A stretch of 59,905 bases of DNA from a bacterium (GCA_030427445.1 JAUIBQ010000005.1:1-59905), one strand, 5' to 3'; counted from the stretch's first letter, positions 7,306-53,569 are shown. A program made the numbers and translations. Notes: generated from the letters alone by a model not told the origin.

Positions 7306-8244
7306 ATGACAACAGACTCATTACTTACTTTACGTACTTTCACTGAAGATAATATGCCTACACTTGATGTTGTGACTTTGGGTGCACTTGAGTTGCTTTC
7401 TCAAAAGAACCTACCAAAGCTCGACATACCATATAAGCATCCAATCGTTGTCGGCTCAGGCAATGCGGAAGTAGCGGGAAGGATTATATTTGAGAGCGTT
7501 GATGCAATATTTGCCTCAGAGAGCACAGTAGACGCAAAGCTGGAGATAGAATCAGTCGATGGCGTAGTGCTTTTGTCTGCTTCAGGTAGTAAACACGCAC
7601 CAATTATCGCTAACAAAGCAAGAGAGAAGGGACTTCCTGTAACTTTAGTCACAAATAACGAAGAAAACCCTACGAAAGAGGCAATGGCAGATTACAGTGG
7701 ATACGCGCAATTTGTGTACCCGAAAAATAGGGAACCGTATACTTACAACACTTCGACATATATGGGTATGATTTTAGGGGGCAGTGGTGAGAGTGCATCG
7801 GAAATCGAAGCATTTATTGAAGAGTACATCTCCACGATAACCTTCCCTGATTTTAGTCAGTATCAAAAATATTACCTCATTGTTCCTCCGCACTTCTCAG
7901 GCATCACATCGATGTTACAAACGAAATTCATTGAGCTTTTTGGCCGTGAAATTGCTCGAGATGTAAGCACCTCTGAACTTATGAAGCATGCTACCACTGT
8001 CGTACCCTCTAAAGAATTATTTATCTCATTTGGTGATGTTGAGAACGTTTGGGGTGAGCCTGAAGATAGGTTACACATACCTCTCCCTAACGCTGCAGGC
8101 TACGGTGCTATGATGGCGATAGGGTATTACGTTATAGGACAGATCCAAAAAGAGTATAGTCACTATTTCCAAGACAATATTGTAGAGTATTGCAAACGTG
8201 CCTCTGAGTCGTTTAGGTCTTCAATATCACCAATAGTTGAGTGA
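7306..8244 (+). CDS. SIS-domain sugar isomerase-like protein
   Basis: VGSGNA, LSASG and KH motifs of the SIS fold; start placed at MTTDS just after the cupin stop. Confidence 0.6.
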   Translation: MTTDSLLTLRTFTEDNMPTLDVVTLGALELLSQKNLPKLDIPYKHPIVVGSGNAEVAGRIIFESVDAIFASESTVDAKLEIESVDGVVLLSASGSKHAPIIANKAREKGLPVTLVTNNEENPTKEAMADYSGYAQFVYPKNREPYTYNTSTYMGMILGGSGESASEIEAFIEEYISTITFPDFSQYQKYYLIVPPHFSGITSMLQTKFIELFGREIARDVSTSELMKHATTVVPSKELFISFGDVENVWGEPEDRLHIPLPNAAGYGAMMAIGYYVIGQIQKEYSHYFQDNIVEYCKRASESFRSSISPIVE

Positions 8245-13960: not shown

Positions 13961-14388
13961 GCGAGTCAAAAAAACGACCAACAAAGAAACAATACGAACT
14001 ACTTTCGTTTATAGATGAGTTCATCAAAGAGCACGGCTATAGCCCGAGTTATCGAGAGATCATGCGCGGATGTAATTACACATCAGTTGCGACTGTTGCA
14101 CTGCATGTCGGAAACCTAGTTAAGCGTGGTCATATAGTCAAGAAAGATAACTCCGCACGCTCGCTTGAAGTCGTGAAAAGCGATGAAACTGCGCAGAATA
14201 TCGTGCAAAAAGAAGTTGACCACGCCAAGAAGCTTGTTGAAGAGATTGAGAAGCGATTGAAGCAGTTCGAGCAAGAAGCTTCTCAGGAAGTGTTGGATGA
14301 AGTCTATGTGCTAGTCGGAGCTCTGAAGGTGCTCGGTCATGACGACCACGCATACGAGTTCGCGACGGAGCTACATAAACTAAAGTAA
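13957..14388 (+). CDS. LexA-type winged-helix DNA-binding protein lacking the S24 peptidase domain
   Basis: TKKQ..LL.FI...GYSPSYREI..S.ATV..H...L..RG N-domain; helical C-terminus without an Ala-Gly site or Ser/Lys dyad. Confidence 0.8.
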   Translation: MSESKKRPTKKQYELLSFIDEFIKEHGYSPSYREIMRGCNYTSVATVALHVGNLVKRGHIVKKDNSARSLEVVKSDETAQNIVQKEVDHAKKLVEEIEKRLKQFEQEASQEVLDEVYVLVGALKVLGHDDHAYEFATELHKLK

Positions 14389-14403
14389 GTAATAGAAGTA
14401 TAC

Positions 14404-14880
14404 TTACTGGCAATTGGCGATTGAGCTAAATTGTGTTGAGCCTGAAGGCCAAGAACTTAGAAAGAAACCATTTAGCCGGTAGTAATGTGCTGAATCCCAA
14501 ATTAAGTAATCGTTATGGATTTGTGACGCATATGCTTGTCCCGATTTCCATTGGCCATTATCTGCTGGTCCAGCAGTCAACTGTCCTACGGAGCCAACTC
14601 CTGGGCGGTAAATGCTAGAGTTGAATCGAACACTGGTGTAAGTTACTGAGCTAGTTGGTGAATTTGATAAGAGTGCTACTCGGACATCCCATAGTGGGCC
14701 AAATCCTGAGTTTACGTATTTTTTACATATAAGCGTCAAGCCGGCATGTGAGTCATTTAGTGTCGTCCAGCCTGCTATTGCAGAGGTTTTACTTTGATAA
14801 ATAAGTAACGAAGATGCCATCATTAATAGACTGACTACGATAAACAGTACACCTTTATTTAGTTTATATGCTGCGTGCAT
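14404..14880 (-). CDS. Hypothetical secreted protein
   Basis: N-terminal signal/TM segment; strong AGGAGG RBS; two Cys. Confidence 0.65.
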   Translation of the reverse strand: MHAAYKLNKGVLFIVVSLLMMASSLLIYQSKTSAIAGWTTLNDSHAGLTLICKKYVNSGFGPLWDVRVALLSNSPTSSVTYTSVRFNSSIYRPGVGSVGQLTAGPADNGQWKSGQAYASQIHNDYLIWDSAHYYRLNGFFLSSWPSGSTQFSSIANCQ

Positions 14881-14998
14881 TATGCCTCCTCTTTTAATAT
14901 CCTTACACTTACTTTATAAAAATTGTAATTCTGTAACCGTGATGTTTGTTACATAATCAATAATTCTGCTATTCTCAGACAATAAATAGGGGTAAAAG

Positions 14999-15712
14999 TT
15001 GAAGAGAGAAATTATGCGGAAGAGAAGAGTGGTTGCCTTTTTTGTGCTTGCTATCGTGTTTTTGTTGAGTGTGTTTGCCTCAAATCCTGCTCCAGTTGAA
15101 AGCCCTGTTAAACAGGAGATAAACGATGTATTGGCTGCACAAAGTGAATTGGCGAGTGATGTTCTTGATAGTTTGGAAGTAAAGGGTAGAGCGCCGAAGA
15201 CAGGGTATTCACGCGGTCAGTTTACTGACGGCTGGGCGACGATTGATGGTTGTGATGTGAGGAATCGAATTCTGAGTGCTCAGCTTATGCAAATCGAGAT
15301 AGATGAAGATGAGTGTTCTGTGCTAGCCGGTGTTCTCGATGACCCGTATTCAGGTAATCAACAGGTTTTTATCCGTGGGGAGATGACGAGCTCCAAAGTG
15401 CAGATAGACCATGTCGTCGCACTGAGCGATGCGTGGCAGAAAGGTGCACAGGAAATAACTGATTTAGAGCGACTGGCATTTGCTAATGATTCTCTTAATC
15501 TTTTAGCAGTGAACGGTCCACTTAACCAACAGAAAGGCGACTCAGATGCTGCGAGCTGGTTGCCACCCAACACTTCGTTTCGGTGTCAGTATGTTGCACG
15601 ACAGATTGCTGTGAAAGCGAAGTATCACCTTTGGGTAACAGACGCCGAGCAAGCAAGTATGAGACGAGTGTTAAACAATTGTCCGGAGCAAGTATTGCCA
15701 TATGCTGAGTGA
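14999..15712 (+). CDS. Exported HNH endonuclease (DUF1524-like)
   Basis: N-terminal TM; GYSR..F, CDVRNRIL, QIDHVVAL..AW, NLLAV...NQQKGD and WLP motifs. Confidence 0.88.
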   Translation: MKREIMRKRRVVAFFVLAIVFLLSVFASNPAPVESPVKQEINDVLAAQSELASDVLDSLEVKGRAPKTGYSRGQFTDGWATIDGCDVRNRILSAQLMQIEIDEDECSVLAGVLDDPYSGNQQVFIRGEMTSSKVQIDHVVALSDAWQKGAQEITDLERLAFANDSLNLLAVNGPLNQQKGDSDAASWLPPNTSFRCQYVARQIAVKAKYHLWVTDAEQASMRRVLNNCPEQVLPYAE

Positions 15713-45892: not shown

Positions 45893-46309
45893 CTAGTTAA
45901 GTATTCCGACAGTAAGACCGATCAGCGCAAACTCAACGATAACCCACGTAGCGTCAATCCACATGAGCTTAAATGGTCGCAGAGCGAATGCGTATAAAAA
46001 TAGTATTTGCGATGCAGCAAGCCCCACACCTAGAACGGCACCATCAAACAGTCCGTCAAACCAACCTTGAGTGTCAGCCAGCACAACATTTAGCGTAAAT
46101 GCTCCAACACTGCTCGTCACAAGAACTAGCGGCATAATCCGGCTCACGTATGCTTTCTCTATGTCTTTTGCTTTAACCTCAACCGCTTCCATCCATGGCT
46201 TACCTGCAAGGCTGCTACTGTACCAGACGAAGCTCCATACCATGCTTACGACAACAGATACCGCCACAGCTACCCAATTCACGTTGTTTAACATTTCTGA
46301 TAAATCCAT
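45893..46309 (-). CDS. DUF1761-family membrane protein
   Basis: NW.AV, WYS...GKPWM and RPFKL..ID motifs. Confidence 0.8.
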   Translation of the reverse strand: MDLSEMLNNVNWVAVAVSVVVSMVWSFVWYSSSLAGKPWMEAVEVKAKDIEKAYVSRIMPLVLVTSSVGAFTLNVVLADTQGWFDGLFDGAVLGVGLAASQILFLYAFALRPFKLMWIDATWVIVEFALIGLTVGILN

Positions 46310-46380
46310 TACTCCTCCATTATGCCGATTGTGCTAATTATCTCATAAGTAAAAGTTTCAATTCTACTCTGGGTATCAAA

Positions 46381-46410
46381 AAGTCAGAACTATATCTACA
46401 GTTCTGACTT
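46381..46410 (-). terminator. Hairpin distal to the outermost tRNA 3'-end repeat
   Basis: AAGTCAGAACT/AGTTCTGACTT stem. Confidence 0.6.
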
Positions 46411-46419
46411 CATCTATTC

Positions 46420-46598
46420 CAGCTTGGCTCCGGGGACTGGATTCCCCAGGGAAATTTTGGAGAGCTTTAGCACGTGCTAGTACTGCACGCTCTGGCTCAA
46501 AATATCGAACCAGCCCTTTCAGGGCAATCTGGTTCGATTCTACATCTTCGATGTAAAAGAAAAAGCCCCGACAAATGTCGAGACTTCATTTTTGGCTC
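46420..46598 (-). repeat. tRNA-Asn 3'-end-linked repeat unit C (att-like)
   Basis: 46425-46444 is a 20-bp exact match to the tRNA 3' end; the T-arm remainder follows at 46505-46514 after an insertion; then hairpins and a TGGCTC core at 46593. Confidence 0.85.
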
Positions 46599-46690
46599 GC
46601 TGTGGTGAGCGAGTTACGAACTACTCATATACTACTTTAATCTGTTCTAGAACTGTGACATAATTAATTTAACTAATTTAATTTATACAG

Positions 46691-47953
46691 ATGGTACAAA
46701 TACTTAACGACTCAAAAACTGATATCCATGTCATTAAAACTGATTTTGGAACTAATGAAATAAACTTTGTAGAGAGAAAAGGTATTGGACACCCAGATAC
46801 ACTAGCAGACAATCTTGCTGAGCACCTAAGTGCAAAATATTCTCGATACACGTTAGAAAAGTTTGGAGCAATCTTACACCACAATTTTGATAAACTTGGT
46901 ATTCTAGGTGGAAAATCTTTAGTAAAATTTGGCAGCGGAAAAATGACTAGCCCCATAAGAGTGCTAATTAACGGGCGAATATCTGATAAATTTGGCGACG
47001 AAACAATACCTTTTAGAGAGATGCTTTCGTCAGCTACGTACGAGTTTATAAGTGCTCGATTCGGTGAGTTGATCCCCGAAGATATGGTATCTATAACATT
47101 TAATATAAGTACAGCAAGTAGTCCTGGGCATTCAGACAAGAATGATAAAAGCGGCAGTAGTCGCAATTACTGGTTCCAACCTAGAGGGTTAAATGATCTA
47201 CCAGAAATACATAGTTTGTTCTCGAATGATACTTCAATTGGATGTGGGTATTACCCTTTAAGAAGTATTGAATCCTATGTCTTAATGCTGGAAAACGACC
47301 TCACATTAGGTGAGTTTGCCAAGAAACACGTTTGGGCTGGTACAGATGTTAAGATAATGGGTTCTGATATAGAAGGGAAAGTAGATATAACTCTATGCGT
47401 TCCTCAGATCTCTAGATATGTTAATGACATCGAAGAGTATAAAGCAAACATCAAGATCATAAAGGACTATTTAACTGAGCATTCTCAGAAAAATTTAGGG
47501 AGTAAGGTCAATTTTAATCTCAATACGCGTGATGATTACGAAAGGCAAGAGCTATATCTGACAGCTACTGGATCTTCGATTGAAAGTGGTGATGAAGGCT
47601 TGGTAGGTAGAGGTAACCGTGTTAACCAGTTAATTACGATCAATAGTCCTATGAGCATGGAGGGTGCAAGTGGAAAGAACCCTGTATATCACATCGGAAA
47701 ACTCTACTATATAGCAGCCCATCAAATAGCAAAGAAGGTTTATGAAAAATTCGATGGCCTGCAGAATGAAGTGTATCTAGTGAGTAACAGCGGCAGGGCA
47801 TTAATCAGTCCTTGGAAGACCGTAATCAAGGTGCCGAAAAATAGTAATGTTAACCAATCAGACGTAGAGTCATTTGTTGTTGGATGCCTCAGAGAGATAC
47901 CGCAAATTACAAACGAATTAGTGTCAGTAAATTCAGAATTAGTTATCTCATAA
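46691..47953 (+). CDS. Archaeal-type S-adenosylmethionine synthetase (MAT)
   Basis: ERKGIGHPDTLAD, HHNFDK, NDTS, TGSSIESGDEG.VGRGNR and GKNPVYHIGKLY motifs. Confidence 0.9.
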   Translation: MVQILNDSKTDIHVIKTDFGTNEINFVERKGIGHPDTLADNLAEHLSAKYSRYTLEKFGAILHHNFDKLGILGGKSLVKFGSGKMTSPIRVLINGRISDKFGDETIPFREMLSSATYEFISARFGELIPEDMVSITFNISTASSPGHSDKNDKSGSSRNYWFQPRGLNDLPEIHSLFSNDTSIGCGYYPLRSIESYVLMLENDLTLGEFAKKHVWAGTDVKIMGSDIEGKVDITLCVPQISRYVNDIEEYKANIKIIKDYLTEHSQKNLGSKVNFNLNTRDDYERQELYLTATGSSIESGDEGLVGRGNRVNQLITINSPMSMEGASGKNPVYHIGKLYYIAAHQIAKKVYEKFDGLQNEVYLVSNSGRALISPWKTVIKVPKNSNVNQSDVESFVVGCLREIPQITNELVSVNSELVIS

Positions 47954-48031
47954 GTATGAAGTAGCTAGCTTTAATCTATAGTTGTATTTCTGTACAAAAT
48001 GTACTAAAGTATCAGTAGGAATTATTTACCA

Positions 48032-49312
48032 ATGCATGACTTACGTGAGATATTTTCTGAAGAGCAGTTTGGACAGACTGTCGAAGCTTTGCAATATCGT
48101 GGTTTTGAGCTAACTGAAGGCGATAGAGCCGTCTATTATGAACTTAGATCGTTGCGAAGTGGCCAAGAAGATTTACGTGCAGATAAAAATAGAATAGCGG
48201 CACAGTTTAAAGATTCAGACGACCAAAGGCGAGCTGAACTTAGAGAAGAATTGGCTACAGTTGAAAGTGCATTAGAAAGTGCTAAAGAACAGCTTGAAGG
48301 GGTTGAGCCTGGATTTAATGACAGAATGCTCAGAATGCCAAATATATCTGCTCCTCACGTACCTATCGGTGGATCAGAAGATGAAAACGTTGAGGTTTCT
48401 GTTCATGGTGAAATTAAGGTGTTACAAGGTGATGTTACATTAGATCATCTTACTCTTGGCACAAGACTTGGTATTATTGATAACGATAATGCCGCCATGC
48501 TATCGGGCTCTAAATTTTCTCTTTTACGCGGTGAAGGTGCTGTACTAAAACGAGCATTGATAAATTTTATGCTAGACAGCTCTACAGCAAATGGCTATGA
48601 GGAGGTTGATGCTCCATACTTAGTTAGACCCGATATAATGCAGGGGACAGGTCAGTTACCAAAGTTCGATGATGACATGTTTAAAACCACAGACAATAAA
48701 GGTAATCCTCTATATTTGATTCCTACCACTGAGGTTACATTGACCAACTTATTAAGAACTCATGTGTTCTCTCCCGAAGAACTTCCGTACAAGCTTACTG
48801 GATCATCAGAGAACTTCCGCCGCGAAGCTGGAAAGTCAGGGCAGGACACTAAGGGACTAATCAGGAATCATCAATTCCCAAAAATCGAGTTAGTTAGAGT
48901 TGCACACCCAGATGATTCTTGGGAAAGTTATTACGAGATGATAGATGAAGCAAGTTTGGTTCTAGAAACCCTGGGCTTACCTTATCGGCATCTTGATCTT
49001 TGTACGGGAGACTTAGGAGTTGCTGCTATGGCAACGAGGGACCTTGAAGTTTGGTTACCTAGCCAAGGCCGTTACCTGGAGGTTTCTAGTGTTAGTAACA
49101 CTGGGTCTTATCAATCTCGTAGAATGGGTATGAAATTTCTTAATCCAGAAACTGGAAAACGTGAATTTGTTCATACACTTAATGGTACAGCAGTAGCTGT
49201 TGGAAGAACACTAGCTTGCATACTAGAAAATGGCCAGAATCCAGACGGTTCAGTAGACATTCCAGAGGCACTGCATGATTACACTAAGTTTAGTAGGATT
49301 ACGACTGAATGA
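48032..49312 (+). CDS. serS: Serine--tRNA ligase (islet-borne)
   Basis: N-terminal coiled coil; GTGQLPKF, LIPTTEV, FRREAG, GLIRNHQF, EVSSVSN and HTLNGT..A.GR motifs. Confidence 0.95.
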   Translation: MHDLREIFSEEQFGQTVEALQYRGFELTEGDRAVYYELRSLRSGQEDLRADKNRIAAQFKDSDDQRRAELREELATVESALESAKEQLEGVEPGFNDRMLRMPNISAPHVPIGGSEDENVEVSVHGEIKVLQGDVTLDHLTLGTRLGIIDNDNAAMLSGSKFSLLRGEGAVLKRALINFMLDSSTANGYEEVDAPYLVRPDIMQGTGQLPKFDDDMFKTTDNKGNPLYLIPTTEVTLTNLLRTHVFSPEELPYKLTGSSENFRREAGKSGQDTKGLIRNHQFPKIELVRVAHPDDSWESYYEMIDEASLVLETLGLPYRHLDLCTGDLGVAAMATRDLEVWLPSQGRYLEVSSVSNTGSYQSRRMGMKFLNPETGKREFVHTLNGTAVAVGRTLACILENGQNPDGSVDIPEALHDYTKFSRITTE

Positions 49313-49956
49313 CAGGAGCTATTTTTATAGGTGGTGGTGGTGGAAAAGAAGATGCTGTTGAATTAGATGCAGCATATAAAAATAAAGTATTATCTTCATC
49401 GAAATCACCAAGTTGCTTGTATATTCCCCATGCTATGGAGTCAGGAAAACATAGCAAAGCTCTTCACTGGTTTACTGAAACGTATGACTTCTTTGAGGAT
49501 ATTAAGTTACTGCAAGCCCCTAAAGATTTAGAGGATGAATACGATAGCATCTATATGGGTGGAGGATATTGTCATAGGCTAAGAGATACTCTAATAAGCT
49601 TTGATGTCCATTCGGCGTTTTTTAAATCTTTTATTGGAAAAGGCGGCAGCCTATATGGTGGTAGTGCAGGAGGGGTTGTTCTAGGAAAAACCTTATTGTC
49701 ATCAAGAGAAGTTATGTTACGACCTGAAACGTTTCTGCCTTTAGACCATCAGGGCATGGATATTTGCAACGGACTTAGCTTTAGGCCTCATTTTACAGGC
49801 AGCAAAGACGAGGCTTTAGCAATAGAATCTCTTTCTAGGGAGCAAGAAATAGCAGTAATAGCTCTTAGCGAGGGAGCTGGAGTAATAATACAAGAGGGCC
49901 AAGGACACGAACTCATTAACCCTGATCTTGCTCTAGAATTTGGTGTGGACTTATGA
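49309..49956 (+). CDS. Peptidase S51 (PepE/cyanophycinase-like)
   Basis: IGGG, YIP.A, YMGGG, YGGSAG, PHF and LSE motifs. Confidence 0.8.
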   Translation: MTGAIFIGGGGGKEDAVELDAAYKNKVLSSSKSPSCLYIPHAMESGKHSKALHWFTETYDFFEDIKLLQAPKDLEDEYDSIYMGGGYCHRLRDTLISFDVHSAFFKSFIGKGGSLYGGSAGGVVLGKTLLSSREVMLRPETFLPLDHQGMDICNGLSFRPHFTGSKDEALAIESLSREQEIAVIALSEGAGVIIQEGQGHELINPDLALEFGVDL

Positions 49957-50963
49957 TTAATATTGAAGCTTTTGAAGCTCGAATGAAATGTCTAGAAGCG
50001 TATTCTTTCTCAGAAAGATATGCAACTGCAGTATCTAATTTAGCTGATCTGTATACGGAAATCGAATATGTTGAACCTATGCCGCTAGTTCGTGATATAG
50101 ACGTAGACTCAACCTTACTAACTTCCTCCGGTTTACAGTATATGAACCAGTTCATACATGGTGATATGCCAGTACCCAACCATGCGTTCTTGATATCACA
50201 GCCTGTCGTTAGGATGAACTATCTCCCTACTGTGTCTATGGGGTCATATACAAACTTCGTCAATTTCGGCACAATGCAAATTGGCTTAAACCAAAATGAA
50301 CATACCACTTTAAGCAATGAGTACCGAGATGTCTTGGCTGAAGCAGCTGGAAGTGATGTGACTACAATTACTGTCAGCGAAGATTTAAAGCATAACAGAA
50401 ACGGAATGGATTATAGAACATACCATGAGAATTACGTTGTCGATGACCTTGAGGTCGCCGATTCTCTTTTTCACGAAATTGTTCTAGCAGATGGTGCAAC
50501 TATAACATTGTCAGAACTTGGGGGTGGTTTAGAGAGACTATTATTCGGAAGATCACCTCTAGTAATTCAAGAAACAACAGGTATTAGCACAATAGATGCT
50601 ACCAATATCGAAGCAGCTGACGCTTTTAGGGGCGCAGTCTTGATAGCTGGAAACAGTGTTAGGCCTTCAAATAATAACCAAGGCTACCAATTGCGCCGAC
50701 TTTTAAAGCGTATGCCAGATACTTCAGCAGACCTACAAGAGTTTATGGAATCGTTAGCATTCAGCCAAGTACCACAAAGATATTGGCAAGATATTGGCGG
50801 AACGCAACTTCCATTCAAAGAAACTGCAGACATAGTTAGAAAAGAGTTATGGCGTAACGTAAACTTGGCAGCCTTAAGTAGAGCTGGAGTTAAATCTAAG
50901 TCAAAAATGGATCTCTCTATGGACCCAGTAGCTTTCTCTACTAAATTTAGTCTAGGTGAATAG
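49953..50963 (+). CDS. Truncated alanyl-tRNA synthetase-like protein (catalytic domain only)
   Basis: STLLTSSGLQ, SQPVVR, ELGGGLERL and ADAFR....GNSVRPSNNNQGYQLRRLLKR mirror the AlaRS N-domain; no editing or C-Ala domains. Confidence 0.75.
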   Translation: MINIEAFEARMKCLEAYSFSERYATAVSNLADLYTEIEYVEPMPLVRDIDVDSTLLTSSGLQYMNQFIHGDMPVPNHAFLISQPVVRMNYLPTVSMGSYTNFVNFGTMQIGLNQNEHTTLSNEYRDVLAEAAGSDVTTITVSEDLKHNRNGMDYRTYHENYVVDDLEVADSLFHEIVLADGATITLSELGGGLERLLFGRSPLVIQETTGISTIDATNIEAADAFRGAVLIAGNSVRPSNNNQGYQLRRLLKRMPDTSADLQEFMESLAFSQVPQRYWQDIGGTQLPFKETADIVRKELWRNVNLAALSRAGVKSKSKMDLSMDPVAFSTKFSLGE

Positions 50964-51590
50964 ATTATCTAGGCGTTTTATACCTTCTGGGTTAAAAATA
51001 TCAACTATCCTATCATTGCAAAATATTAAGCCAGAGCTCTCGCTAAGTCCGATAAGATTTGAATTAAATCTCTTTGCTTCGGCTATATGACGATTACTAA
51101 ACTCACCATATAAATGTGGCACAAGAGAGGAGTTATTCAAATAATTGTACCCATGATTATCGTTTGACTCAACAAATTCATCAGTTGGAGCTACCGTAAT
51201 TGTTTTGCCAAAAATAATTGCTCCAGCACTTCCTCCGTAAACAAGACCACCGCTGTTGATATGTTTACTTATGTAATCATCAAGTCCATAATGAGCGAGG
51301 GTATATAGTAGCTTACCAGTGTTGCCGCCTCCTATGTATATAAGATCATATGTTTTCTTAGAAAAAGCTTTAGCACTAGCTGAGCTAGTCACTGTATCTA
51401 TACTTTCAAGATATCCGTACTGACTCTTAAACCAATTAACAGCGTCACTATAGTAATCATTCTTTAACGCTACGGGTATATATAGACATCTAGAGGACCC
51501 ACGCTTAAGTAATGCTTTTCGTAAAGATAGATCAATCTTTTTTGATTGTTTAGCGTTGCCACCGCCCGATAGATATATTAAACCTTTCAT
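50952..51590 (-). CDS. Peptidase S51 (second paralog)
   Basis: LSGGG, YIPVA, YIGGGNT, YGGSAGA, PHL and LSE motifs. Confidence 0.82.
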   Translation of the reverse strand: MKGLIYLSGGGNAKQSKKIDLSLRKALLKRGSSRCLYIPVALKNDYYSDAVNWFKSQYGYLESIDTVTSSASAKAFSKKTYDLIYIGGGNTGKLLYTLAHYGLDDYISKHINSGGLVYGGSAGAIIFGKTITVAPTDEFVESNDNHGYNYLNNSSLVPHLYGEFSNRHIAEAKRFNSNLIGLSESSGLIFCNDRIVDIFNPEGIKRLDNLFT

Positions 51591-51655
51591 AATTCACAAT
51601 TGTACATATGATAGATACCTTTGACAAATATAGGTCAATATTATAAGTTATACAT

Positions 51656-52255
51656 ATGACAAATAACGAAATGACTCTTGAAACTTATGAACGTAATATT
51701 GACAAGTTTATTGAACGCACGCCTAAAGACACTATTGGTGAAACTAAAGTTTGGCTTGATGCAATCGCAGAAAGAGTTTCTACAGGCAGCAGTGTGCTTG
51801 AAATAGGAAGCGGCTTTGGACGTGATGCCGACTACTTAAGGTCAAAAGGTATTGGAGTGTTGTGTACTGATGGAGCTGCTGGTTTTGTTAAAGCGCTAAG
51901 AGCGCGAGGTCATGAGGCTATGCAACTAAACGTACTTACTGACGAGATAGACGGTTCTTATGATCTAATATTTGCAGATGCAGTTTTCGAACATTTTACT
52001 CGTGACCAACTTGCTTACGCCCTTTCAAAACTAAATAGGGCCACTGTAGATGGTGGAACTTTAGGTTTTAGCATCAGGAGAGGTGAAGGTGAATATTGGT
52101 CAAAAGAGAAATTAGATGAAGATAGATTTTTTTGTTTGTGGGAACCTGACCAACTAGGTTTCGCCGTAACCGCTGCTGGTTTTAAGGTCGATAGTATTTC
52201 AGAGAGCAATGGCTATCAAAACATAAAAAGACTTTACCTACTTGCTACCAAATAG
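51656..52255 (+). CDS. Class I SAM-dependent methyltransferase
   Basis: VLEIGSGFGRD, TD and YDLIFA.AVF.H motifs. Confidence 0.88.
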   Translation: MTNNEMTLETYERNIDKFIERTPKDTIGETKVWLDAIAERVSTGSSVLEIGSGFGRDADYLRSKGIGVLCTDGAAGFVKALRARGHEAMQLNVLTDEIDGSYDLIFADAVFEHFTRDQLAYALSKLNRATVDGGTLGFSIRRGEGEYWSKEKLDEDRFFCLWEPDQLGFAVTAAGFKVDSISESNGYQNIKRLYLLATK

Positions 52256-52341
52256 TTTTAGTAGATTTCCATTTTATTGCTACTTTGCTTCATAACTAAA
52301 GTATCTCACGAAACAAAAACACTATGTTTCCATAGTGCTTT

Positions 52342-52556
52342 CAGCTTGGCTCCGGGGTGAGAAAGTCCAGTGGACTTTTGCAAGGGAGACCACTCTTGAA
52401 CACTTGTTTTCAAAGAGGTGGCGACGGGGTCGCGGAACGTGACTGGATAGAATCAACACAACAAATCTGTGCGCCTGGAGCAGGGCAGCAGACTTGATAT
52501 CGAACCAGCGACCTCGAAGTTAACAGCTTCTTGTCCGCTGTACAGCGGACTACCCA
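52342..52556 (-). pseudogene. Interrupted tRNA-Asn copy (repeat unit D)
   Basis: Pieces at 52347-52357, 52441-52448 and 52500-52533 (34 bp identical to 53424-53457, including the anticodon), separated by hairpin insertions; D-arm degenerate. Confidence 0.8.
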
Positions 52557-52607
52557 GTATTTAGTATTAATTTCTTGGCTCAGCTTACAGGTCACGGACT
52601 TTAATAA

Positions 52608-53030
52608 CTACTGTAAGTTGCTGTCTTCAGCTAGGCGAACCATTCTATCTATAAACCAAAATTTAACTATCATAACAAGCAGCGAAGACAGTACAAGGGG
52701 TATAAGTTCTTGTTGCCAACCAAAGTAAATAAACAGCCCAAATAATGGAATATTAGCTAAGTTCAGTAGCGTCGGCAGATCGTGCTTCAATTTTTTACCA
52801 TCCTCAAAATATAGTTTTTCACCAATAACACCTTTACTCATCCAGTTATCGCCATTTTTAGGTCGAGGGAATAACAGCGGATTCACAACAAGCCAAACCA
52901 AAGTTATTCCTATGATCCAGTAGTTGTGCAAGTATAAGCCGACTGCTAACATCGGCATGGATAGAACACGACTCCATCCACTCCATGGATTAGTATGCCT
53001 ATCCCAGACTCTATCGCTTAGTATTGCCAT
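52608..53030 (-). CDS. DUF6653-like membrane protein
   Basis: WDRHTNPWSGWSR, NP.LFP.P, WMSK.V.GE and K.WFIDRM motifs. Confidence 0.75.
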   Translation of the reverse strand: MAILSDRVWDRHTNPWSGWSRVLSMPMLAVGLYLHNYWIIGITLVWLVVNPLLFPRPKNGDNWMSKGVIGEKLYFEDGKKLKHDLPTLLNLANIPLFGLFIYFGWQQELIPLVLSSLLVMIVKFWFIDRMVRLAEDSNLQ

Positions 53031-53118
53031 AAACCTACTATAGCAGATGCTTAGATTAAAATAGCAGGCTATTCAGTAGCGCGAAAGCTTACTGGATAGC
53101 CTGTAAAATATATGCTCT

Positions 53119-53260
53119 TGGCTCCGGGGACTGGAAAGATAAAATCCGCCCGTCTACCAAGCTAAGGCTTGGTGGGGGATTTCCGCCCCAGCTTCGCTGG
53201 TTCAATTCGCATACTGCGAACTTAAACTAAAAACAGACCCGATTGGGTCCGTTCTTAGTT
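53119..53260 (-). repeat. tRNA 3'-end-linked repeat unit A
   Basis: TGGCTCCGGGGACTGGA followed by CCGCCCGTCT..CAAGC hairpin, GCTTCGC and a terminator hairpin. Confidence 0.85.
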
Positions 53261-53405
53261 TGGCTCCGGGGACTAGAAGCCTATGGAAATTCCGCCCGTC
53301 TGCAAGCTAAGCTTGCGGGGGAATATCGAACCGCTTCGCTGGTTTAATTCGCTGTTCGCGAACTCAAAAGAAAAGAGTCAGACAAAATGCCTGACTCTTT
53401 TCTAT
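53261..53405 (-). repeat. tRNA 3'-end-linked repeat unit B
   Basis: TGGCTCCGGGGACT with the same internal motifs as unit A; ends in the tRNA terminator AGAAAAGAGTCAG/CTGACTCTTTTCT. Confidence 0.85.
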
Positions 53406-53480
53406 TGGCTCCGGGGACTGGATTCGAACCAGCGACCTCGAAGTTAACAGCTTCTTGCTCTACCGCTGAGCTACCCCGGA
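53406..53480 (-). tRNA. tRNA-Asn(GTT), CCA encoded
   Basis: Reverse complement TCCGGGGTAGCTCAGCGGTAGAGCAAGAAGCTGTTAACTTCGAGGTCGCTGGTTCGAATCCAGTCCCCGGAGCCA folds as a cloverleaf; TATAAT upstream. Confidence 0.97.
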
Positions 53481-53569
53481 ACGCCTAACTCATTTTCTTA
53501 AAGTAAGGATGAGTACAGAGGTAGATTATACGTCTTTCGTGTGATACCGTCAACCAGAGTTAGAGAAAT

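What the first reader, a model, noticed from the sequence alone, without database searches (positions are those of the whole stretch)
46381..53480. tRNA-Asn-anchored cassette array built from hairpin-rich tRNA 3'-end repeats
Seen: downstream of tRNA-Asn the 3' end (TGGCTCCGGGG on +) recurs at 53261, 53119, 52347 and 46425, with a bare TGGCTC core at 46593. Every copy is followed in tRNA orientation by its own, different terminator-like hairpin. The intervals are either empty ~145-170-bp units (A, B, C) or carry genes (DUF6653; a six-gene cluster). No integrase or transposase lies in the window. Known: islands regenerate tRNA 3' ends as att sites, and E. coli has tRNA-linked repeats such as those at tyrT. 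Inference: an integron-like gene-capture platform in which a trans-acting recombinase stacks minimal units and cargo at a tRNA.
Basis: partly seen in the sequence, partly recalled or inferred. Interest (0 to 1): 0.85.

Follow-up and report, generated by a model that had tools for sequence, protein, structure and literature searches.

The report
Stacked insertions behind tRNA-Asn gene
Behind the asparagine tRNA gene of a tiny Saccharibacteria genome lies a pile of old insertions, each carrying its own spare copy of the tRNA's tail, and one holds a small folded element not found in the RNA family library searched.

Summary
tRNA-Asn (53406-53480, minus strand) is followed by four exact copies of its last 11 nt and two bare GAGCCA copies. 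Each of the six ends tested is followed by its own strong hairpin.

The integron reading is only partly supported. In relative G005 the same tRNA-Asn carries an intact ~8-kb element. It encodes a large serine recombinase (LSR) abutting the tRNA and is flanked by GAGCCAA. In G009 and G012 that site is empty. The window's own genome has such an element at tRNA-Arg. In 15 of 17 LSR loci of relatives a convergent tRNA lies at the recombinase gene's end.

The array is therefore best read as serial site-specific insertions that each regenerate the tRNA end. It now has no cognate recombinase. This resembles staphylococcal SCC composite islands (recalled) more than an integron.

Two things are new. 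First, about 17 of 40 tRNA genes in this 0.97-Mb genome carry partial copies nearby. Second, a 91-nt element ("E", 52355-52445) has strong covariation and no Rfam match, and was found almost only in Saccharibacteria. It sits in the T-loop of partial tRNA copies, at 1-16 copies per positive genome. How E and the ORF-less ~145-nt units arise is unresolved.

The parts
53525..53553 (-). promoter-like site upstream of tRNA-Asn (TTGACG, 17 nt, TATAAT)
   Evidence: 11 of 12 matches. The same -10 region is visible upstream of tRNA-Asn in relatives (my reading).
53406..53480 (-). tRNA-Asn(GTT) with encoded CCA; anchor of the array
53261..53405 (-). unit A (145 nt, no ORF). It holds a terminator hairpin at 53369-53403, an inverted T-arm-like piece at 53338-53350, a T-stem 5' strand plus TTCGA at 53326-53334, a hairpin core ('F2') at 53277-53325, and a copy of the tRNA 3' end at 53261-53276.
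   Evidence: Coordinates were read from the ruler.
53119..53260 (-). unit B (142 nt, no ORF), a paralogue of A. It holds a terminator hairpin at 53225-53260, an inverted T-arm-like piece at 53196-53208, the F2 core at 53136-53187, and a 3' end copy at 53119-53135.
   Evidence: (D3).
53065..53103 (-). hairpin after copy B (weak U tract)
   Evidence: -20.7 kcal/mol, z -3.66.
52582..53118 (-). one-gene cassette with the DUF6653 ORF at 52608-53030; it ends at a bare GAGCCA at 52576-52581
   Evidence: PF20358, 2.2e-18.
52347..52555 (-). pseudo-tRNA-Asn. The D-arm is replaced by a 16-nt palindrome (52534-52549). An exact 34-nt copy of the tRNA lies at 52500-52533. The T-loop is broken after TTCGA by about 143 nt (about 52358-52499, read from the ruler) that contain element E. 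The 3' end copy lies at 52347-52357.
   Evidence: (D5).
52355..52445 (+). element E (91 nt, three hairpins). Here it is antisense to tRNA-Asn.
   Evidence: R1, 94.2 bits; covariation; it clusters with the copies at the tRNA-Asn locus of G005 and G009.
52315..52342 (-). terminator hairpin after the 52347 copy
   Evidence: A near-identical hairpin follows a bare GAGCC in G012.
46599..52346 (.). six-gene island. It holds a methyltransferase at 51656-52255 (+), a peptidase S51 at 50952-51590 (-), an AlaRS-related ORF at 49953-50963 (+), a peptidase S51 at 49309-49956 (+), a SerRS paralogue at 48032-49312 (+), and an archaeal-type AdoMet synthetase at 46691-47953 (+).
   Evidence: There is no DNA match in 30 relatives.
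46593..46598 (-). bare GAGCCA, the distal junction of the six-gene island, followed by a terminator hairpin at 46562-46587
46425..46592 (-). unit C (168 nt, no ORF). It holds an inverted T-arm-like piece at 46529-46540, a T-stem 5' strand plus TTCGA at 46505-46513, a hairpin core at 46445-46504, and a 20-nt copy of the tRNA 3' end at 46425-46444.
   Evidence: D2, D4. Coordinates were read from the ruler.
46380..46411 (-). outermost terminator hairpin. An 89% paralogue lies on contig C30.
45893..46309 (-). DUF1761 gene, the flank beyond the array

Best explanation
The region is an accretion array left by serial site-specific insertions into the 3' end of tRNA-Asn.

How it works. Each incoming element carried its own copy of the tRNA's 3' end plus a terminator. 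tRNA-Asn therefore stayed intact, and the previous end with its terminator was pushed outward. The most likely enzyme is a large serine recombinase (LSR). In full-length elements of this lineage its gene sits at the tRNA-proximal end, reads into the tRNA, and recombines within the last ~7 nt (GAGCCAA for tRNA-Asn).

What is here. The cognate recombinase is gone. What remains is:
- a one-gene cassette (DUF6653) and a six-gene island, each ending at a bare GAGCCA;
- three ORF-less units (A, B, C);
- a pseudo-tRNA.

The ORF-less units. They belong to a lineage-wide class of partial tRNA copies whose T-loop is interrupted by a hairpin module. The best-defined module is E, a 91-nt element that folds on one strand and recurs at many tRNA loci. 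I take the units to be end-to-end deletion remnants, or recombinase-less satellites, of such elements. I take E to be a separate small mobile module that survives in spare, non-essential tRNA copies.

Shown: the anatomy, the occupied and empty sites in relatives, the link between LSR genes and tRNAs, and E's fold and distribution.

Inferred: that an LSR made this array, the origin of the mini-units, and E's mobility.
For: 1. Repeats and hairpins are real.

2. Occupied versus empty site. In G005 a 516-aa ORF with Resolvase, Recombinase and Zn_ribbon_recom domains runs convergently into tRNA-Asn. The ORF is at 14119-15669 and the tRNA at c15628-15702. About 8 kb of cargo follows. The element is bounded by GAGCCAA on both sides. 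The terminator beyond its far end is the one that directly follows tRNA-Asn in G009 and G012.

3. The window's genome holds one LSR element at tRNA-Arg(GCG). It is a 532-aa LSR overlapping the tRNA (PHROG integrase). A bare GTACCA plus hairpin lies at 8234, then a mini-unit and a 17-nt repeat at 8043.

4. LSR homologues occur in 15 of 41 genomes. In 15 of 17 loci analysed a convergent tRNA lies at or within about 300 nt of the ORF's end. One more lies ~0.9 kb away, and one locus has none (my reading of coordinates).

5. The sequences just inside the bare junctions of contig C30 and of G012 are visibly alike.

6. Array content differs between genera. There is 1 copy of the tRNA end in G013, G016 and G023, 2-3 in G005, G012 and G027, and 5 here.

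7. The cargo has no DNA match in 30 relatives. Its SerRS is a 29%-identical paralogue of the SerRS on contig C31.

8. The feature is genome-wide. 9 of 40 tRNAs repeat their last 12 nt downstream on the same contig. 17 of 40 have a partial copy within 700 bp (my count; hits inside neighbouring tRNA genes left out).

9. Element E.
- 69 distinct copies, 32 pairs, 27 with compensatory changes.
- 97.2% of cells paired against 78.6% in shuffles (0 of 500 as high) and 30-47% when slid.
- About 130 G-U cells against about 17 A-C cells on the E+ strand (my count).
- 72 of the 74 copies within 400 bp of a tRNA are co-oriented with it, out of 100 copies in all.
- The 3' flank starts at tRNA position 55-59 in 27 of 30 downstream cases. 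The 5' flank is tRNA sequence abutting E in 26 of 32 upstream cases (my counts).
- Identical E copies at two different tRNAs of G118 share only the ~90 nt.
Against: - No recombinase lies in the window. No LSR of the tRNA-Asn type is in this 97%-complete genome; tblastn finds only the 13 residues encoded antisense to the tRNA. The G005 enzyme is only 21% identical to the genome's own LSR.
- LSR activity and the crossover position rest on homology and on one comparison between genera, not on strains or experiments.
- The 14-20-nt identity blocks, the inverted T-arm pieces and the T-loop modules of units A-C are not predicted by a crossover in GAGCCAA.
- ~145-nt units could hardly recombine as double-stranded circles (my own judgement, from no call).
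- E-rich genomes G001 and G012 gave no LSR with this query.
- Sharp identity edges of E fit gene conversion as well as transposition.
- E's G-U bias and co-orientation with tRNAs point to an RNA role that this model leaves unexplained.
Confidence: 0.68

Rival explanations
1. An active integron-like capture platform. A recombinase acting in trans currently inserts, excises and shuffles minimal units and gene cassettes at tRNA-Asn.
For: - Cassettes without a recombinase are bounded by the same short repeat.
- Each cassette has its own terminator.
- Whole mini-units with ends 7 nt from a tRNA end are duplicated in G118.
- An LSR exists elsewhere in the genome.
Against: - No recombinase adjoins the array, and no LSR of the tRNA-Asn type is in the genome.
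- The resident LSR is 21% identical to the tRNA-Asn type and sits at tRNA-Arg.
- The genome's only tyrosine recombinase is the single copy found in almost all relatives.
- Cargo genes mostly face away from the tRNA promoter.
- Where contigs from three studies cover the stretch, the listed pieces of the same organism agree with it without differences, and no rearranged form of that organism was seen. Contigs cannot show rare forms.
Confidence: 0.1
2. The units are selected, functional tRNA-linked RNAs. Structured trailers or leaders such as E, embedded in a T-stem and ending in a tRNA-like CCA tail, would be made by read-through or from the displaced tRNA promoter and act in tRNA biology. The insertion history would be secondary. 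This is not exclusive of the best explanation.
For: - E folds on the strand that runs with the tRNA: a conserved G-U at one pair in 62 of 69 copies, and 27 covarying pairs.
- 72 of 74 tRNA-adjacent copies are co-oriented.
- E is always closed by a T-stem-like helix (my reading).
- The E copy at the tRNA-Asn locus is shared by three genera.
Against: - Strong terminators lie between the tRNA and the downstream units.
- The distribution is patchy: 13 of 101 genomes of the class, at 1-16 copies.
- The window's E is antisense to the array.
- Cores at the same position differ between genera.
Confidence: 0.2
3. Assembly artefact, or a chimera of strains collapsed at repeats.
For: The run's own contigs break at the repeats (table 8). 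The genome is a 43-contig assembly.
Against: - Contig pieces of X1 tile the whole stretch without differences.
- In X3 and X5 a 411-nt piece (52971-53381) spans unit B and most of A without differences.
- In X7, from a third study, a piece at 46300-46442 bridges the last copy and its flank.
- X1 may be the source sample, so it is not independent.
- The same architecture recurs at other tRNAs and in other genomes.
Confidence: 0.03

Closest known systems
Staphylococcal SCC composite islands at the 3' end of rlmH/orfX (CcrAB large serine recombinases); recalled, no call
   Same: Serine-recombinase insertion into the last bases of a conserved gene, which is regenerated. Short direct repeats bound each element. 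Elements stack in tandem. Recombinase-less cassettes sit beside complete ones.
   Different: The target here is a tRNA's last ~7 nt, and different tRNAs serve different enzymes. The recombinase gene reads into the tRNA. ORF-less ~145-nt units with T-loop modules have no SCC counterpart. Activity is untested.
Genomic islands and integrative elements at tRNA genes, with tandem accretion and cis-mobilizable elements (CIMEs); recalled. Partial tRNA genes left by integration are described in the abstract of PMC9897764.
   Same: Direct repeats of a tRNA end flank the cargo. The displaced tRNA fragments persist. att-flanked remnants lack an integrase.
   Different: Those systems usually use tyrosine integrases with crossovers in the anticodon or T-loop. 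Here the complete elements encode LSRs. About 17 of 40 tRNA genes in a ~1-Mb genome are affected.
One search found nothing more.
   Same: ORF-less units of about 150-180 nt downstream of a tRNA, each ending in the tRNA's 3' terminal bases.
   Different: As I recall, the tyrT units are near-identical tandem duplicates. Here the units differ. A and B are about 79% alike over the one 42-nt stretch that the repeat finder aligned (D3), and C is unrelated. Each has its own terminator, and they alternate with cargo.
Integrons (IntI, attI, attC)
   Same: Promoter-less cassettes are stacked at one site. A folded single strand may matter.
   Different: There is no IntI, no attI and no attC. The repeat is the tRNA end, and the cargo is multi-gene with mixed orientation.
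Small ORF-less repeats with folded ends (MITEs, REPINs, IS200/IS605-derived elements) and introns in tRNA genes, as comparisons for element E; recalled
   Same: E is short, multi-copy, structured, patchy between genomes and specific in where it sits.
   Different: E has no terminal inverted repeats. No Y1 transposase, TnpB or reverse transcriptase is in the genome. E is far smaller than group I or II introns, and the interrupted tRNA copies are truncated, so splicing could not yield a tRNA. No Rfam family matches.

Membership tests
Integron | IntI-type tyrosine recombinase next to the array | tested here: not met
   PF00589 finds one hit in the genome, on contig C39 and not in the window. The same single high-scoring copy occurs in 39 of 41 relatives.
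Integron | cassettes bounded by attC sites | tested here: not met
   The shared boundary is the tRNA-Asn 3' end, or its last 6 nt. No other repeat family is common to all cassettes. No attC model was run.
tRNA-targeting integrative element or genomic island | direct repeats of the tRNA end flanking cargo, with the tRNA kept intact | tested here: met
tRNA-targeting integrative element or genomic island | a recombinase gene inside the element | tested here: not met
   None in the window. The feature is met in G005 at the same tRNA and on contig C23 of the same genome.
Large serine recombinase (the enzyme proposed) | Resolvase N-terminal domain plus Recombinase domain plus zinc ribbon | tested here: met
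   G005 ORF: PF00239 2.7e-13, PF07508 9e-18, PF13408 2.2e-09. G000 C23 ORF: PF00239 and PF07508 only.
Large serine recombinase (the enzyme proposed) | recombination of attP with attB at a short central core | not testable with these tools
   A 7-nt shared GAGCCAA at both junctions in G005 is only inferred to be the core.
Any Rfam family (for E and units A-C) | a match to a curated covariance model | tested here: not met
   Only tRNA passes threshold. The other hits are far below their gathering scores.
IS200/IS605-derived ORF-less elements, or TnpB guide RNA (for E) | a Y1 transposase or TnpB in the genome | tested here: not met
   PF01797 gives 0 hits in G000, and also 0 in the E-rich G001, G010 and G012. 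PF07282 gives 0 hits.
Retron or group II intron (for E) | a reverse transcriptase | tested here: not met
   PF00078 gives 0 hits in G000.

The most novel reading that the evidence does not exclude
E and its sibling hairpin cores (F2, F3, and the 16-nt palindromes) are a new class of ORF-less mobile modules. They insert at T-loop position 54/55 of spare tRNA-gene copies and fold as RNA or single-stranded DNA.

Together with tRNA-end-specific serine recombinases they would turn about half of the tRNA genes of Saccharibacteria into insertion platforms.

One bold version: the module changes the outer part of an attB-type half-site. The mini-units would then behave as attP-bearing satellites that borrow an LSR.
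Probability: 0.3. Interest if true: 0.85.

Novelty: new variant of a known kind. Interest (0 to 1): 0.64.

Why it matters
Saccharibacteria have ~1-Mb streamlined genomes. Yet here about 17 of 40 tRNA genes carry partial copies nearby, many with structured modules, and some with accessory genes.

If serine recombinases that target the last bases of tRNA genes drive this, three things follow:
- They are a main route of gene gain in a phylum that is hard to manipulate.
- Their att sites could serve as integration tools for these bacteria.
- The cargo shows what such epibionts acquire. Here it is a SerRS paralogue cluster. In G005 it is a DNA methylase with restriction-modification-type domains.

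Element E is a well-supported structured element without a family in Rfam 15. It occupies a fixed position inside tRNA-like sequence. Working out whether it is an RNA, a recombination site or a transposon-like module is now a concrete question.

Tried and rejected
- **Rfam** on the array and on ten other tRNA loci: nothing but tRNAs.
- **Enzymes that could move E.** Reverse transcriptase, TnpB and GIY-YIG (only a 507-aa open frame, which I take to be UvrC) are absent or irrelevant in G000. Y1 transposase and LSR do not track E-rich genomes.
- **GIY-YIG homing as the cause.** Small GIY-YIG-like ORFs (my reading of the translations; no domain search was run on them) lie by tRNA-Asn in G002 and G018, but not in this genome.
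- **E as guide or bridge RNA.** No partner protein was found.
- **E in viruses.** An exact 23-mer scan of IMG/VR found 0. This shows only that this word is missing there.
- **F2 core.** nhmmer found it only in G000 among the DNA held, although one search shows short matches in relatives. Not followed further.
- **E tree**. Only 90 columns and many open forks. Clustering by genome fits either transposition or gene conversion.
- **Sequencing runs.** No RNA holder is listed, so expression is untested. Only contigs could be laid. They cannot show circles, empty sites or rare variants. One 16-kb contig of another organism in X1 carries look-alikes of a unit-B piece and of the outermost terminator 2,555 nt apart. 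I draw nothing from it.
- **Literature.** Search listings showed no title or abstract start that mentions E or tRNA-end LSRs in Saccharibacteria. One search listed 15 of 897 papers, 15 of 43, 12 of 262 and 12 of 62. I read the abstract and outline of PMC9897764 and passages of PMC13059738 (not relevant). No supplements were opened.
- **Unpublished genomes.** The tallies include G006 and/or G129. No sequence-level claim rests on them. Their loci L178 and L190 were left out.

Full report
**1.
ARAGORN finds a single tRNA in the window, tRNA-Asn(GTT), at 53406-53480 on the minus strand. Rfam confirms it. The reverse complement of its last 11 nt occurs at 46425, 52347, 53119, 53261 and in the gene itself. 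That is five copies against 0.22 expected, and no shuffle reached five. Bare six-base copies (GAGCCA in tRNA orientation) lie at 46593 and, new here, at 52576.

Identity to the tRNA reaches 14 nt (unit A), 17 nt (unit B) and 20 nt (unit C). All six ends are followed by a different strong hairpin, and five of those by a U-run.

Between the copies lie:
- ORF-less units of 145, 142 and 168 nt;
- a DUF6653 gene;
- a six-gene cluster: archaeal-type AdoMet synthetase, a SerRS-like protein, two S51 peptidases, an AlaRS-related ORF and a methyltransferase.

A pseudo-tRNA-Asn lies at 52347-52555. It holds an exact 34-nt copy of the anticodon arm to T-stem. A 16-nt palindrome replaces its D-arm. Its T-loop is broken after TTCGA by about 143 nt.

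**2. The organism and the scale of the feature.**
The window is contig C36 of a 966-kb, 43-contig, 97%-complete genome. An exact-word scan of public genomes with a motif from the array returned almost only Saccharibacteria/Saccharimonadales assemblies.

All 40 tRNA genes encode CCA. For 9 of them the last 12 nt recur downstream on the same contig. With looser matching, 17 of 40 have a partial copy within 700 bp (my count; hits inside neighbouring tRNA genes left out).

The downstream units share one plan:
- a terminator;
- a piece resembling an inverted T-arm;
- a T-stem 5' strand;
- a hairpin core;
- the tRNA from mid T-loop to CCA.

The tRNA-Asn array is therefore the largest instance of a genome-wide habit.

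**3. A recombinase that fits.**
G000 has one tyrosine recombinase, 315 aa, of the kind nearly every relative has once. It also has one large serine recombinase, or LSR.

The LSR lies inside the 8-kb interval between tRNA-Arg(GCG) at the end of contig C23 and a repeat of that tRNA's end. Its reading frame runs convergently into the tRNA. The interval also encodes an FtsK-like ATPase, an HNH nuclease and membrane proteins.

The element's far junction is a bare GTACCA plus hairpin at 8234. A mini-unit and the 17-nt repeat at 8043 follow.

LSR homologues occur in 15 of 41 genomes. In 15 of 17 loci analysed a convergent tRNA lies at or within about 300 nt of the ORF's end. The tRNAs differ: Arg, Lys, Met, Glu, Trp, Gln, Gly, Ser. 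One further locus has the tRNA ~0.9 kb away, and one has none. Two loci from an unpublished genome were left out.

**4. The same tRNA, occupied and empty.**
In G005 a 516-aa ORF with Resolvase, Recombinase and zinc-ribbon domains ends inside tRNA-Asn. Its last 13 residues are encoded antisense to the tRNA. About 8 kb follow, including a DNA methylase with restriction-modification-type domains (N6_Mtase, TaqI_C, Eco57I) and a DUF4238 protein.

The near junction reads tRNA...CCG/GAGCCAA. The far junction reads ...GC/GAGCCAA, followed by a terminator. In G009 and G012 that terminator directly follows tRNA-Asn.

So a complete LSR element sits in G005 exactly where G009 and G012 are empty, bounded by a 7-nt repeat. 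Just inside the far junction the G005 element has a sequence resembling the tRNA's T-loop-to-acceptor stretch with altered spacing (my reading).

In the window, the bare GAGCCA copies at 52576 and 46593 bound the DUF6653 cassette and the six-gene island in the same way.

The number of tRNA-end copies at this locus varies between genera from 1 to 5. The six-gene island has no DNA match in 30 relatives. Its SerRS is a 29% paralogue of the copy on contig C31.

G000 has no LSR of the tRNA-Asn type. The array here is most likely a fossil, or dependent on an enzyme brought in from outside.

**5. Element E.**
A ~90-nt stretch inside the pseudo-tRNA (52355-52445) matched many places in nearly all relatives.

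*Fold.* Sixty-nine distinct copies align to three hairpins joined by conserved single strands.
- RNAalifold predicts 32 pairs, 27 of them with compensatory changes.
- 97.2% of cells pair, against 78.6% in shuffles (0 of 500 as high) and 30-47% when partners are slid.
- G-U cells outnumber A-C cells by about 130 to 17 on one strand (my count). One pair is G-U in 62 of 69 copies. That strand (E+) is therefore the folded one.
- No Rfam family matches.

*Distribution.* A covariance model finds 12 copies in G000. It finds E in 13 of 101 genomes sampled across the class, at 1-16 copies.

*Position.* In 80 public loci there are 100 copies. Of these, 74 lie within 400 bp of a tRNA and 72 are co-oriented with it: 39 upstream and 33 downstream.
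- Downstream copies sit in a partial tRNA copy. tRNA positions ~42-54 abut E's 5' end in 25 of 30 cases. Positions 55-59 to CCA abut its 3' end in 27 of 30.
- Upstream copies follow a duplicate of the tRNA from position 1 to the T-stem (or to the D-arm or anticodon arm) in 26 of 32 cases. Then come a short T-loop piece, an inverted T-arm piece, a new promoter-like stretch and the intact tRNA.
- E therefore occupies T-loop position 54/55 of a spare, truncated tRNA copy.

*Mobility.* Identical E copies at tRNA-Leu and tRNA-Val of G118 share nothing beyond the ~90 nt. Another G118 pair shares a whole unit whose ends lie 7 nt from the tRNA end. In a tree, copies cluster partly by genome. The window's copy groups with the copies at the tRNA-Asn locus of G005 and G009. 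The window's E runs antisense to the array, which is the rare orientation.

**6. What this adds up to.**
The cargo-bearing parts of the array are well explained by serial LSR-type insertion into the tRNA's last bases. This works like SCC composite islands at rlmH (recalled), and like tandem tRNA islands in general.

The integron label fails its defining tests: no IntI and no attC.

The ORF-less units and E are not explained by that mechanism alone. Their long identity blocks, inverted T-arm pieces and T-loop modules need either end-to-end deletion of older elements, hitch-hiking satellites, or a separate T-loop-seeking module that survives only in non-essential tRNA copies. I favour the last for E. 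The reasons are its sharp edges, its patchy spread and its multiple tRNA hosts. Gene conversion and a selected RNA role are not excluded. No transposase, reverse transcriptase or TnpB accompanies it.

**7. Limits.**
- All comparisons are between genera.
- Recombinase activity is inferred.
- Only contigs of public runs could be laid. They agree with the assembly in three studies but cannot show rare forms.
- Literature searches were judged from listings only.
Sub-feature coordinates were read by hand from rulers.

Noticed in passing
window 46691-52255: The six-gene island pairs a SerRS paralogue (29% identical to the SerRS on contig C31) with an AlaRS-related ORF, two S51 peptidases, an archaeal-type AdoMet synthetase and a SAM methyltransferase. 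It looks like an aminoacyl-tRNA-linked small-molecule or immunity module. It has no DNA match in 30 relatives.
   Followed up: partly
G000 contig C30:3288-4592: A second, tRNA-less piece of array. It holds a tRNA-Asn-like end with one mismatch plus a terminator, two genes, then a bare GAGCCA followed by an 89% paralogue of the window's outermost terminator (window 46355-46430).
   Followed up: partly
L025 (G002) about 1185-1500; L018 (G018) about 460-740: Small GIY-YIG-like ORFs (my reading; no domain search) sit just upstream of tRNA-Asn. In G002 the ORF lies between a displaced 5' fragment of tRNA-Asn, whose D-loop carries a 16-nt palindrome, and the intact gene. This is a 5'-side counterpart of the 3' arrays.
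   Followed up: no
L166 (G005) 14119-15669; G000 C23:14681-16279: The LSR reading frames run through the terminator and end inside the tRNA, antisense to it. The last 13 residues of the G005 enzyme are encoded by tRNA-Asn antisense sequence.
   Followed up: partly
whole genome G000: ARAGORN finds 40 tRNA genes, all with encoded CCA, but no tmRNA gene in this 97%-complete assembly.
   Followed up: no
relatives G002, G003, G029 and others: Open frames of about 205-240 aa with a Y1 transposase-like domain occur at up to 6 copies per genome in 16 of 41 relatives. None is in G000.
   Followed up: no
L023, L018, L025 upstream of tRNA-Asn: Some relatives carry a conserved ~70-nt leader between the promoter and tRNA-Asn. 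It has a hairpin-like repeat and is not present in the window. It may be another structured element.
   Followed up: no
L054 (public contig) about 7450-7980: Two identical tandem copies of an upstream E unit (tRNA-Gln positions 1-50, E, a palindromic T-loop piece and a promoter) precede the intact tRNA-Gln. Units can therefore amplify in tandem.
   Followed up: no
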